Below are positions 52,851 through 56,477 of a stretch of DNA of 64,000 nt, one piece after another. The stretch's first letter is position 1; each line of letters starts with the position of its first letter. Under the pieces are notes generated by a model. The model made no database searches. It worked only from the letters and a program-made list of their open reading frames with translations, and was not told the origin of the DNA. Source of the DNA: Squalus acanthias (lineage: Eukaryota); NCBI GenBank assembly GCA_030390025.1, contig CM059432.1:29886001-29950000 (forward strand). The letters run 5' to 3'. The translations under genes and the position numbers were made by a program.

Positions 52851-55299
52851 TACAAGTAATCTAACTAACCTCGGCGTCAGCAAATCAGTAGATCATTTTG
52901 CACCAAATGGGCCTGGGTAAATACCTAGTTTTTAGCCTCTCCCAAGAGATCACAAGGTTTTGGGTGGGGTGGTGAGTCTATATATTATGGTATCACAATT
53001 GTGTGGAGCAGGCTGGATAGAGCAGAGGATCTTTACCTATCCATCATTATTCGTATGTACATCTGAAATGTGAGTTGTAGCTGCAATCAGTTAATGTGTG
53101 ATTGATGACTTTGAACAGCATAGCTCGGTCCTATTTGGAAACCTCATTGGAGGGCTTTGTTCAGGTAGTGGAGAGGGGGAACATAGTTGCAAAGCAATAG
53201 TGTTCCTGGACTTTAGAAACAAAGGGAAGGATGAAGAAGGGGCAGGGTTGGTTTTGAAAAGGAATGATGACAACAGTTTTGAAAGGTGTAGGTGCCAAGC
53301 CAGTAGAGGGTAGATGATGTCAGTGATTAAAGCACTCAGAAGGGAGGGGGTTGAAAGGAGCAGCTGTTGAACTTCATGAAAGAGACAAATTTAATGATGA
53401 CAGCAGGCAACGGGGAATAGACGAAGAGTGTGGAATGAGGAAGGGTGGGACCCCAAGGACGGAGTGAGCGGGGGAACCGCTGAAAGGAGCAGGGAACAGA
53501 AGAGGTATAGGAAGTCGAGTGGATGCCTTCAATTTTGGACACAAAAAGGAGTTCCTTGCAGCTAGTGTAGATGGGGAAGGTACAGTGGATGGTGATCAGA
53601 GGAGACAATTTATTGTGGAGAAGAGAGCTTTGGAATTGTTCTGATCTGCAGGATGATCTTGGAGTAATAAAAAGACCGATACACCTTGAGTGTCTCAATC
53701 TACAAGAGGATTCTGGGTCACTGCTGCTAGCAGAAGATATGGGGAGGGGCTAGCGGCAGGCAGGCTCCAAATTCATGGAATGTATACAAGATAGTTTTCT
53801 AGATCAGTATGTTGAGGAACCAACTAGGGAACAGGCTATTTTAGATCTAGTATTGTGCAATGAGAAAGGGTTAATTAATAACCTTGTAGTAAAGGGGCCG
53901 TTAGTGAAGAGTGGCCATATGATAGAATTTTATATTGAGTTTGAAAGTGACTTAGAGTCATAACAGCACAGAAGGAGGCCATTCGGCCCATCGAGTCCGT
54001 GCCGACTCTCTGTAGAGCAATCCAGTCAGTCCCATTCCCCCTCTCTATCCCCATAGCCCTGCAAGTTTATTTCCCTCAAGTGCCTATCCAGTCTCCCCTT
54101 GAAAACATTGAGTGTCTCCGCTTCCACCATTTCCGTCGGCAGTGAATTACAGGTCAGTTTTCCTCACATCCCCCCGTATCTCATGCCCAAAACCTTAAAT
54201 CTGTGTCCCCTAGTCCTTGTGCCATCAAATAGTGGGAACAGCCTTTCCCCATCTAGCCTATCCAAACTTGTCATAATCTTGTACACCTCTATCAAATCAC
54301 CCCTCAACCTCCTTTGCTCCAATGAAAACAAATCCAGCTTCTCCAACCTGTCCTTGTAGCTAAAATCCCCCATCCCCGGAATCATTCTGGTAAATCTCCT
54401 CTGCACCCTCTCAAGGGCCTTCAAATCCTTCCTAAAGTGTGGTGACCCGAACTGGACGCAATACTCCAGTTGTGGCCTAACCAGAACTTTATAAAGGTTC
54501 AACATAACTTCTCTACTTTTGTACTCAATACCTCTATTTATGAAGCCCAAGATCCCATATGCTTTGTTAACCACTCTCTCAATATGTCCTGCCACCTTCA
54601 GGGACCTATGCACATTAACTCCCAGGTCCCTCTGTCCCTGCACACTCTTTAAAACTGTGCCATTAAGTGTATACTGCCTCTCCCTGTTCCTTCTGCCAAA
54701 ATGCATCACCGCACACTTCTCTGTATTAAATTCCATCTGCCACTTGTCTGCCTATTCTGTTAGCCTTTCTATGTCCTGTTGCAGTCGATTGGTATCATCC
54801 TCATTGTTTGCCACACCCCCAAGTTTGGGGTCATCAGTAAATTTAGAAATTCTACTCTGTATTTCAATATCCAGGTCATTTATATTATATCAAAAAAAGC
54901 AGTGGCCCCAGCACTGACCCTTGGGGAACACCACTGTCTACCATCTTCCAGTCTGAAAAACAGCCATTTACCACAACTCGCTGTTTTCTGTCCTTAAGCC
55001 AATTCCTTATCCAAGCTGCTGCTGACCCATCTATTCCATGCGCCTCAATTTTGTTAACCAGCCTTCTATGTGGTACTTTGTCAAACGTCTTCCTAAAATG
55101 CATGTGGACAACATCCATTGCATTCCCTTCATCAATCCTCTCTGTTACTTCATCAAAAAATTCAATTAGATTAGTCAAACACAATCTGCCTTTTACAAAT
55201 CCAAAAAGAAAGTACTGCAGATGCTGGAAATCTGAAATAAAAACAGAAAATGCTGGAGATACTCAGCAGGTCAGGCAGCATCTGTGAAGAGAGAAACAG

Positions 55300-55336
55300 A
55301 GTTAACGTTTCAGGTCGATGACCTTTCGTCAGAACT
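55300..55336 (-). ncRNA. Minimal type I hammerhead ribozyme motif
   Basis: Reverse complement reads agtt-CTGACGA-a-aggtc-atc-gacct-GAAAC-GTT-aact. Confidence 0.7.
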
Positions 55337-55586
55337 GGAAAAAAGCAGGAAAGGGAACAGATTTTTAAGCAAGTGTAGGGGCTGGGAAATGGGGGAGGGG
55401 ATGAAAGAACAAAAGGGAAGGTCTGTGATAGGATAGAAGGCAGGAGAGGTTCAGAGACATCATGAGATATTCAAGGCAAAAGGAGATGGTAATGGGACAG
55501 ACCTTCCCTTTTGTTCTTTCATCCCCTCCCCCCTTTCCCAGCCCCTACACTTGCTTAAAAATCTGTTCCATTTCCTGCTTTTTTCC

Positions 55587-55623
55587 AGTTCTGACGAAAG
55601 GTCATCGACCTGAAACGTTAACT
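55587..55623 (+). ncRNA. Minimal type I hammerhead ribozyme motif
   Basis: Stem I agtt/aact, core CUGACGA, stem II aggtc/gacct, GAAA, palindromic stem III ACGU, putative GUU cleavage triplet. Confidence 0.7.
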
Positions 55624-56477
55624 CTGTTTCTCTCTTAGCAGGTCAGGCAGCATCTGTGGAGTATCTCCAGCATTTTCTGTTTTTATTTTACAAATCCATG
55701 TTGCCTCTCCTTAATTAGCTTAAACCTCTCCAGTGCCTATTAATTTTTTCCTTGATTATTGTTTCTAAAACTTTACCCACCACTGATGTTAAACTGACCG
55801 GCCTGTAGTTACTAGGATTGTCCTTACACCCTTTCTTGAACAATGGTGTCACATTTGCCACTTTCCAATCCTCAGGCACCTCCCCCGCATCTAGGGAAGA
55901 TTGGAAAATTATGGCAAGCCCTTCTGCTATCTCCTCCCCCAATTCCCTTAGCAACCTGGGATGCAAGCCATCTGGACCAGGCGACTTATCCACTCTAAGC
56001 ATACCCAGTCTTTCTAGTACATCCTGTCTTATCAATTTTTACTCCTTCCATTGCTGCTACCTTTTCCACTTCGACTGATATTTTGTCAGCATCCACCTCC
56101 TTAGTAAACACCGATACAAAGTACTCATTGAGTATTCTAGCCTTGCCCTGCGCCTCGAAGCATATATCACCTTCTTTGTCCCTAATAGGCCTCACCCCGC
56201 CTCTTACTACCCGCTTACTGTTTACATGCTTAGTTAAATCCAAAACTAGGGTCTTAAATCTAAACAAAGCAAAGTACGTAGGTATGAGGGGTGAGCTGGC
56301 TAAGGTAGATTGGGAAACTACATTAAAAGGTCTGACGGTAGACAAGCAATGGCTAACATTTAAAGAATTAATACATAATTTACAACAAATATACATTCCT
56401 TTAAGGCACAAAAATCCCACAGGAAAAGTGGTCCAACTGTGGCTAACAAGAAAAGTAAAAGATAGTATTAGATCAAA

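What the first reader, a model, noticed from the sequence alone, without database searches (positions are those of the whole stretch)
55204..55685. Non-coding Penelope-derived insert carrying two intact-core hammerhead motifs on opposite strands
Seen: a 482-bp insert with a clean 13-bp target duplication, built only from the 3' terminus of the Penelope family at 24885-26842 in inverted arrangement (arms joined at an acag microhomology near 55497). Each arm has AGUU-CUGACGA-A-AGGUC-AUC-GACCU-GAAAC-GUU-AACU: hammerhead core, short stems I and II, palindromic ACGU stem III, and one extra A after the core. Established: PLE terminal repeats carry minimal hammerheads thought to cleave as dimers through a palindromic stem III. 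Inference: this is a young ribozyme-bearing, retrozyme-like unit mobilised by the PLE RT. The 55300-55336 copy is in ZC3H3 sense, so it would be in the pre-mRNA if this is intron, although the long fold-back could sequester it.
Basis: partly seen in the sequence, partly recalled or inferred. Interest (0 to 1): 0.75.

Follow-up and report, generated by a model that had tools for sequence, protein, structure and literature searches.

The report
Head-to-head truncated Penelope retroelement insertion
This 482-base insert in a shark gene intron is two back-to-back end pieces of a Penelope-like jumping gene, each with that family's usual hammerhead ribozyme motif; it is likely a one-off, dead-end insertion of a known type whose ribozymes are predicted to be locked in a long hairpin.

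Summary
The insert (55204-55685), its 13-bp target duplication, the 4-nt junction overlap and both hammerhead motifs are real. It consists of two 5'-truncated ends of a Penelope-like element (PLE) joined head to head; one carries a 31-34-nt tail. Papers describe this layout as typical of PLE insertions (inverted truncated copy, 30-40-bp tail at one end, TSD), including opposite-strand minimal hammerheads 100-700 bp apart.

The retrozyme reading fails. There is one motif per strand, not a tandem. On either strand the motif's complement is transcribed first, and folding the motif costs 55-64 kcal/mol. The motif also has A-U where G10.1-C11.1 is conserved.

Contigs of two related organisms show both arm ends are family-wide termini and that fold-back joints fall at scattered positions. 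Three letters of this insert are rare there (0.1-2.9% of depth), which argues against an amplified family. The junction itself could not be counted, and no genome is held.

Most likely mechanism (inferred): both nicked target strands primed reverse transcription at the two known start sites, and the cDNAs joined through 4 nt. The scan has reported this pattern before, in other genomes and elsewhere in this one. Ordinary.

The parts
55191..55203 (+). Left copy of the 13-bp target-site duplication
   Evidence: Exact match to 55686-55698; single copy in paralogous LINEs and in X5 contigs
55204..55500 (-). Long arm: 263 nt of the PLE 3' end (pLTR) plus tail, 5'-truncated at the position equal to 26580
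   Evidence: 253 of 263 identical to 26580-26842; family contigs continue at 55500 into PLE upstream sequence (26 contigs in X1, 51 in X5)
55204..55237 (-). PLE tail, 34 nt (31-34 because 3 nt are shared with the target at the other end), on one arm only
   Evidence: loose-end clusters at 55209 and 55235-55237 in family contigs; 30-40-bp tail described in PMC8557442 and PMC11167929
55300..55336 (-). Minimal type I hammerhead motif in ZC3H3 sense: C3 at 55332, G8 at 55327, extra A at 55325, A10.1-U11.1, palindromic ACGU at 55308-55305, predicted cut after 55304
   Evidence: Sequence, motif scans, folding; cleavage untested
55427..55496 (.). 70-nt part of the long arm with no partner in the short arm (loop of the fold-back)
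   Evidence: Inverted repeat I10, 70 nt between arms
55497..55500 (.). 4-nt overlap (ACAG) shared by both arms at the head-to-head junction
   Evidence: chance of 4 nt or more at a random junction about 1.6% at even base composition
55497..55685 (+). Short arm: 189 nt of the PLE 3' end without tail; ends at the same base as the 24885-26842 copy
   Evidence: (D19)
55587..55623 (+). Second minimal hammerhead motif, identical to the first, antisense to ZC3H3; predicted cut after 55619
55637..55658 (.). Exact 22-bp in-place inversion in the short arm
   Evidence: Reverse complement of 26794-26815 and identical to plus-strand 55265-55286
55686..55698 (+). Right copy of the target-site duplication
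54001..55994 (-). Host LINE reverse-transcriptase copy interrupted by the insert (CR1-type label recalled from its motifs; outer ends not mapped)
   Evidence: RT-like frames 54164-54751 and 54885-55262; 93.9% to the paralog at 14698-15870, and the right flank matches other copies
24885..26842 (+). Related defective PLE copy: 11-bp TSD, frameshifted RT, endonuclease region missing, hammerhead with G8A at 26753
   Evidence: TSD 24874-24884 and 26843-26853; homologs carry RVT_1 and some GIY-YIG; no endonuclease match in the window
28514..28711 (-). ZC3H3 internal coding exon (about aa 897-962); the nearest coding exon found downstream of the insert in gene direction
   Evidence: 88% identical to shark ZC3H3; tblastn
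24251..24460 (-). Next ZC3H3 coding exon (from about aa 962; boundaries approximate)
   Evidence: tblastn, 79-97% identity

Best explanation
The insert is two 5'-truncated ends of a Penelope-like retrotransposon joined head to head inside a LINE in a ZC3H3 intron, likely made in one abortive insertion event, and its two hammerhead motifs are terminal-repeat cargo predicted to be held inactive in a long hairpin. Shown: the anatomy, the TSD, the tail on one arm, and that both outer ends match termini used across the family. Inferred: the PLE endonuclease made staggered nicks 13 bp apart. The top strand primed cDNA at the tail start site and the bottom strand at the tail-less start site 31-34 nt away. 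Both cDNAs stopped early (297 and 189 nt), annealed through 4 complementary bases and were filled in. Because both copy the same stretch, this needs two RNA templates or one RNA read twice, unlike L1 twin priming (recalled), where the two pieces do not overlap. A 22-bp microinversion and a few substitutions likely came later. About 0.88 that it is an ordinary, non-amplified PLE insertion; within that, about two to one for dual priming over fold-back self-priming.
For: The layout matches published PLE insertions: inverted 5'-truncated copy, tail at one end only (PMC8557442); inverted pLTR with 31-bp tail and 8-10-bp TSD (PMC3846280); min-HHR pairs 100-700 bp apart on opposite strands (PMC4209133). 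A purified PLE protein nicks and extends both target strands and starts at two sites that bound the tail (PMC11167929). The 24885-26842 copy has its own TSD, no inverted arm, and ends at the same base as the short arm, so the tail-less end is a terminus in its own right. Family contigs break into unrelated A/T-rich flanks at 55209 (129 contigs, X1) and 55235-55237 (93 in X1; 182 and 111 in X5). 5 of the 15 joints shown (of 95) change strand, each at a different coordinate pair, in 1-3 contigs. The insert's letters at 55353, 55452 and 55463 hold at most 0.1-0.4% of depth in X1 and 0.3-2.9% in X5. Folding the motif inside the read-through RNA costs 54.9-64.1 kcal/mol in 8 of 8 transcript lengths, against 5.2 in a single arm.
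Against: The junction's own copy number was not measured. No genome is held, and the bins over 55499-55534 are mixed with contigs that fit two places. Runs X1 and X5 hold only 0.69 and 0.67 of the sampled words, so they may be other species; summed contig depth is not copy number; 80 of 95 joints and 35 of 75 difference rows were not shown. Two strand-changing joints (55257/55327 and 55282/55318) occur in both organisms, so some fold-back junctions are shared or recurrent. The two arm differences are both confined to the long arm, and no private variant is shared by both arms, so nothing here separates dual priming from fold-back. The in vitro work is on a Poseidon element, whereas relatives of this one carry the Neptune/Nematis-type linker zinc finger.
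Confidence: 0.6

Rival explanations
1. Same known, one-off PLE insertion, but made by fold-back self-priming. The tailed cDNA stopped at 55500, its ACAG end paired with CTGT at 55423-55426 on the same strand, and it copied itself back. The hairpin was then cut or stopped at the tail-less site and joined to the target through 3 shared T's.
For: The geometry fits exactly in this one direction. Self-priming is proposed for palindromic PLE junctions (PMC3846280), and endonuclease resolution is proposed for the tail (PMC8557442). The short arm's end shares 3 nt with the target.
Against: The copy-back would have to stop at the very base where non-inverted copies end (26842). The last 101 nt of the long arm have no stable DNA fold (-2.6 kcal/mol, z 0.24) and the 3' ACAG is unpaired in the best structure, so priming would rest on 4 bp across a 70-nt loop.
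Confidence: 0.28
2. The 482-bp unit is itself a non-autonomous element (MITE-like in shape, moved by PLE RT) amplified in this species, with a usable RT start site at each end.
For: Clean TSD; both ends carry the pLTR terminus; pLTRs can mobilise other sequence in trans (PMC3846280). Non-autonomous PLE derivatives are known. Two fold-back joints of other copies recur in two organisms.
Against: One copy in 64 kb. No look-alike stretch in the scan's own index (a weak search). Private letters are rare in family contigs, and the listed loose ends at 55500 continue into normal PLE sequence. The RNA would be a 189-bp duplex that hides the tail-less start region. The short arm's start region is disturbed by the 22-bp inversion.
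Confidence: 0.07
3. The sense-strand motif acts as a ribozyme in the ZC3H3 pre-mRNA, alone or as a dimer with another PLE hammerhead, perhaps helped by PLE protein.
For: The 11 core positions from C3 to U16.1 are intact. The motif is in gene sense and no upstream exon lies in the window. GUU is listed among active NUH sites (PMC3138052). A PLE hammerhead cleaves with protein help (PMC11167929). None of the core positions appears among the 40 of 75 family difference rows shown, while N7, loop 2, 15.2, 16.2 and N17 do.
Against: Its full complement is transcribed first; stem probabilities fall below 0.0001. There is no stem III as a monomer. For two isolated 37-mers the active dimer is -9.7 against -22.9 kcal/mol for the best co-fold (no tertiary terms). 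A10.1-U11.1 departs from the conserved G-C pair. Single min-HHRs showed no cleavage and dimers little. Core conservation reflects selection on the parent element, not on this copy.
Confidence: 0.04

Closest known systems
Complex insertions of endonuclease-positive Penelope-like elements: pLTR with adjacent inverted 5'-truncated copy, tail and TSD (PMC3846280; PMC8557442)
   Same: Head-to-head inverted pLTR pieces, shorter inverted copy, 30-40-bp tail on one end, short TSD, high 5' truncation
   Different: No ORF remains: both arms stop inside the terminal region. The TSD is 13 bp (8-10 bp in the rotifer passages read). The junction has a 4-nt overlap and a 70-nt loop rather than a palindrome.
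Minimal type I hammerheads of metazoan PLE pLTRs (PMC4209133)
   Same: Core boxes, 4-bp helix I, unpaired base between 9 and 10.1, palindromic 15.2-16.2, no helix III, pairs 100-700 bp apart on opposite strands
   Different: A10.1-U11.1 instead of the conserved G-C; 5-bp helix II (7-8 bp in Schistosoma); U at position 17
Poseidon element PAc of Anolis (PMC11167929)
   Same: Two termini that bound a tail, A/T-rich targets, hammerhead in the terminal repeat
   Different: Relatives of this element have the linker zinc finger that Poseidon lacks (likely Neptune; no tree with named references built). No ATG at the start of stem II. Nothing was assayed here.
Non-LTR retrozymes (PMC7229834; bioRxiv 10.64898/2026.07.22.740005)
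   Same: Non-coding, a few hundred bp, PLE pLTR-derived, type I hammerhead motif
   Different: Retrozymes are same-strand tandem repeats that release unit-length linear and circular RNAs; this is an inverted pair with one motif per strand

Membership tests
EN+ PLE insertion unit | Sequence derives from the 3' terminal repeat of an element with PLE-type RT | tested here: met
   Arms 96% and 92% identical to 26580-26842; that element's ORF homologs carry RVT_1 and, in some, GIY-YIG
EN+ PLE insertion unit | Inverted 5'-truncated copy joined at the 5' end | tested here: met
   Head-to-head arms of 297 and 189 nt
EN+ PLE insertion unit | 30-40-bp tail, often at one end only | tested here: met
   31-34 nt on the long arm only; two terminus clusters in family contigs
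EN+ PLE insertion unit | Target-site duplication | tested here: met
   13 bp exact; single copy in empty-site paralogs
Neptune clade of PLEs | CX2-5CxxC zinc finger in the RT-EN linker, and RT phylogeny | tested here: inconclusive
   The window copy lacks this region. Two homologs printed (P0124, P0169; 46% and 38% identical) have the motif, which Nematis shares. No tree with named references.
Minimal PLE hammerhead (min-HHR) | Conserved core CUGANGA / GAAA / UH | tested here: met
   Both copies; no Rfam model hit
Minimal PLE hammerhead (min-HHR) | Unpaired base between 9 and 10.1; palindromic 15.2-16.2; short helix I | tested here: met
   Extra A, ACGU, 4-bp helix I (features)
Minimal PLE hammerhead (min-HHR) | G10.1-C11.1 pair (highly conserved; not part of the published search descriptor) | tested here: not met
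   A-U in both copies and at 26748 onward; no variant at these positions among 40 of 75 rows shown, so this looks like a family trait
Minimal PLE hammerhead (min-HHR) | Self-cleavage as a dimer or with protein help | not testable with these tools
   Needs an assay; folding predicts sequestration in this insert
Non-LTR retrozyme | Tandem same-strand repeats with a type I HHR in at least two consecutive units | tested here: not met
   One motif per strand, inverted arrangement; definition
Non-LTR retrozyme | Expressed as unit-length linear and circular RNA | not testable with these tools
   No raw RNA reads among the 24 runs offered; the geometry cannot give a unit-length product
Non-autonomous amplified PLE derivative (fold-back family) | Many copies with the same internal junction and different TSDs | tested here: inconclusive
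   One copy in the window; private letters rare in two related organisms; junction not resolvable; no genome

The most novel reading that the evidence does not exclude
The 482-bp fold-back is not a dead end but one copy of a self-propagating, MITE-shaped retroelement family of this shark. PLE reverse transcriptase would copy it from either end, keeping the same internal junction and a hammerhead on each strand.
Probability: 0.07. Interest if true: 0.6.

Novelty: new member of a known kind. Interest (0 to 1): 0.15.

Why it matters
By itself little: it is one more copy of a described PLE insertion product. Its value is as a clean fossil for an open question, how PLEs form inverted ends and tails. 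Here each outer end sits at one of the family's two termini, inside one TSD, which is what dual-strand priming at two start sites would leave. Shark genomes hold many such copies, so comparing the arms of many young ones could decide between two-template priming and fold-back. If the junction proved to be amplified, it would be a hairpin-shaped non-autonomous retroelement, which the PLE papers read here do not describe. A 189-bp duplex in ZC3H3 pre-mRNA could be an RNA-editing substrate (inference), but it lies about 26.5 kb from the nearest exon found.

Tried and rejected
Genome-wide junction count: not possible, no genome held. Rfam: 0 matches at gathering score in 64 kb; 17 sub-threshold matches in 55000-55900, mostly miRNA models fitting the long hairpin, none a hammerhead; rejected as generic hairpin hits. 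Pfam on three frames of the neighbouring PLE gave only a sub-cutoff RVT_1 hit in 1 of 3; identity rests on homologs. Raw-read runs were uninformative: X21 gave 10 reads, X22 none. Look-up of the insert in the scan's earlier findings by sequence and by nearby place: nothing. Literature searches: Penelope+shark+Neptune+retrotransposon gave 0 papers; Penelope+twin priming+inverted gave 2, neither on PLE mechanism by title and abstract start. The 2017 paper on PLE hammerhead dimers was not held and is recalled only. Rejected: chance palindrome (arms match a PLE end and a TSD frames them); miRNA precursor; L1-type twin priming on one RNA (the arms copy the same stretch); retrozyme (not tandem); 26744 as the G8A control (it is 26753). 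Searching for an upstream ZC3H3 exon by motif scan and tblastn found none up to 64000 (the tblastn print was cut within the fourth of four queries).
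Full report
Observation. The insert spans 55204-55685 (482 bp) between exact 13-bp repeats at 55191-55203 and 55686-55698. It interrupts a LINE reverse-transcriptase copy (CR1-type label recalled from motifs). Two paralogous copies in the window, near 32 kb and 57 kb, run through the site with one copy of the repeat. 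The closer paralog near 15.8 kb and one near 2.8 kb diverge just before the site and say nothing. In run X5, 12 contigs continue from 55201 directly into the right-flank sequence. The repeat is therefore a true target duplication.

Anatomy. The long arm (55204-55500, minus) matches 26580-26842 at 253 of 263 positions and carries 34 further bases at its outer end. The short arm (55497-55685, plus) matches 26654-26842. The arms are joined 5' end to 5' end and share ACAG; an overlap of 4 nt or more has about 1.6% chance at even composition. The short arm holds an exact 22-bp in-place inversion (55637-55658); apart from it the arms differ at 2 of 167 positions, both changes being in the long arm. 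The short arm's end shares 3 nt with both the tail and the target, so the tail is 31-34 nt.

Parent element and host. The element at 24885-26842 has an 11-bp TSD and a frameshifted RT. Its homologs carry RVT_1 and, in some rows, GIY-YIG; the two best are shark proteins at 66% and 62%. No endonuclease region is left in the window. The two homologs printed have a CX4CxxC linker motif, which marks Neptune and Nematis but not Poseidon (PMC8557442, passages). Neptune is likely, since the vertebrate survey found only Neptune and Poseidon (bioRxiv 10.64898/2026.07.22.740005), but no tree was built. Two ZC3H3 exons lie on the minus strand at 28514-28711 and 24251-24460 (best hits are sharks, 88%). No upstream exon was found up to 64000, so the insert is intronic if the assembly is contiguous.

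Hammerheads. The two 37-nt motifs are identical and have the core boxes, a 4-bp helix I, an unpaired A after A9, a 5-bp helix II and palindromic ACGU. These are features listed for PLE min-HHRs (PMC4209133, parts 1-2 of 4 read). One listed feature is missing: stem II closes with A-U, not G10.1-C11.1. Position 17 is U; GUU is named among active NUH sites (PMC3138052, passages). Rfam has no matching model hit. The G8A variant is at 26753, not 26744. Because the arms are head to head, a transcript of either strand contains the motif's complement first and the motif second. In 8 of 8 transcript lengths tested, forcing helices I and II costs 54.9-64.1 kcal/mol and their pair probabilities round to 0.0000; in a single arm the cost is 5.2. 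Even isolated, the best monomer fold pairs the core with the ACGU region, and the active dimer (-9.7) is far above the best co-fold (-22.9), though the model has no tertiary terms. Published single min-HHRs did not cleave and dimers cleaved poorly. In the Anolis element cleavage needs protein and is not needed for insertion in vitro (PMC11167929, parts 1-2 of 4 read).

Family evidence. 20 of 24 runs listed hold part of the stretch, the best 0.69 of its words, so none is shown to be the window's species. I laid 4 of the 24 on 54995-55534, which holds the long arm, the junction and 38 bp of the short arm. X21 and X22 gave 10 and 0 reads; X1 and X5 gave 42,365 and 69,821 contigs. 13 of 881 loose-end rows were shown. 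Low-agreement A/T-rich flanks begin at 55209 (129 contigs, X1) and at 55235-55237 (93 in X1; 182 and 111 in X5), so both ends of the insert are family-wide termini. At 55500 contigs continue into normal PLE sequence (26 and 51). 5 of the 15 joints shown (95 in all) change strand, each at different coordinates and in 1-3 contigs; two of the five occur in both organisms. The insert's letters at 55353, 55452 and 55463 account for at most 0.4, 0.4 and 0.1% of depth in X1 and 2.4, 2.9 and 0.3% in X5. Within the motif, the rows shown (40 of 75) vary at N7, loop 2, 15.2, 16.2 and N17 and at no catalytic position; the 90% likeness filter biases this. The junction itself could not be counted because the last bins also collect contigs that fit two places. 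Summed depth is not copy number. The evidence leans to a private copy but does not prove it.

Comparison. PMC8557442 (passages) states that an inverted 5'-truncated copy often adjoins the 5' end of PLE insertions and that a 30-40-bp tail is often present at one end only. PMC3846280 (passages) shows inverted pLTRs with a 31-bp tail and 8-10-bp TSDs and proposes self-priming. PMC8969392 (passages) repeats this for curators. PMC4209133 reports min-HHR pairs 100-700 bp apart on opposite strands and ties most dispersed motifs to truncated PLEs. Non-LTR retrozymes are tandem repeats with a hammerhead per unit (PMC7229834, passages; the bioRxiv preprint, parts 1-3 of 5). The insert fails that test. 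It resembles retrozymes only in being pLTR-derived and non-coding. Supplements of these papers were not opened; those of PMC4209133 may list shark motifs or A10.1-U11.1 variants.

Mechanism. PAc protein nicks and extends both target strands and starts at two RNA sites that bound the tail. I infer that here the top strand primed at the tail site and the bottom strand at the tail-less site, and that the two short cDNAs annealed through 4 nt. The main support is that the non-inverted copy at 24885-26842 ends at the same base as the short arm. Fold-back self-priming of the long arm fits the geometry too, but needs 4 bp across a 70-nt loop with no supporting DNA fold and a stop at that same base. 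One locus cannot decide; I put it at 0.60 against 0.28. The 22-bp inversion is unexplained. A short template switch after insertion is plausible (PMC7954356 and PMC8755829, search listing only), and an assembly error is not excluded.

Earlier notes. My reading was recorded before the look-ups. The scan's notes on other genomes and on other pieces of this genome reach the same verdict; they are unchecked AI notes and are not counted as support.

Verdict. Observation confirmed; interpretation partly supported. It is a new instance of a known PLE insertion structure with min-HHR-like cargo, interest 0.15. An amplified fold-back family remains possible at about 0.07.

Noticed in passing
window 55637-55658: Exact 22-bp in-place inversion in the short arm; the inverted piece equals the plus strand of the long arm at 55265-55286. 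With the family's majority letter at 55287 the segment is flanked by a 3-bp inverted repeat. Origin unexplained.
   Followed up: partly
window 55335-55336: Family contigs break off in a cluster at the 5' edge of hammerhead stem I (111 and 77 contigs in X1), i.e. many short copies begin just upstream of the motif rather than at its cut site. A second cluster at 55343 continues into a different upstream sequence (another subfamily).
   Followed up: partly
window 19720-19830 (+) and 59858-59965 (-): Two older, 72-75% identical relics of the same hammerhead-bearing PLE end; both have lost the CG of the ACGU palindrome, and the 59.9-kb copy has G-C at the base of stem II.
   Followed up: partly
window 24885-26842: Defective PLE in the ZC3H3 intron between the two exons found, antisense to the gene; it jumps from the RT region (about 26420) to the terminal region, lacking the endonuclease, and begins with a pyrimidine tract and AG resembling a 3' splice site.
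   Followed up: partly
window 46180-46322 and 46592-46734: Another inverted repeat (143-bp arms, 91%, 269 nt apart) with no other copy in the window; the spacer holds a piece of a different repeat. Not related to the PLE end by BLAST.
   Followed up: no
window 29950-30698: Degenerate tandem array of about 70-bp units (9 copies of a 49-nt core).
   Followed up: no
window 55076/55221 joint in run X1: One contig shows another PLE tail joined to the same LINE family at a different site, 127 bp from this insertion point.
   Followed up: no
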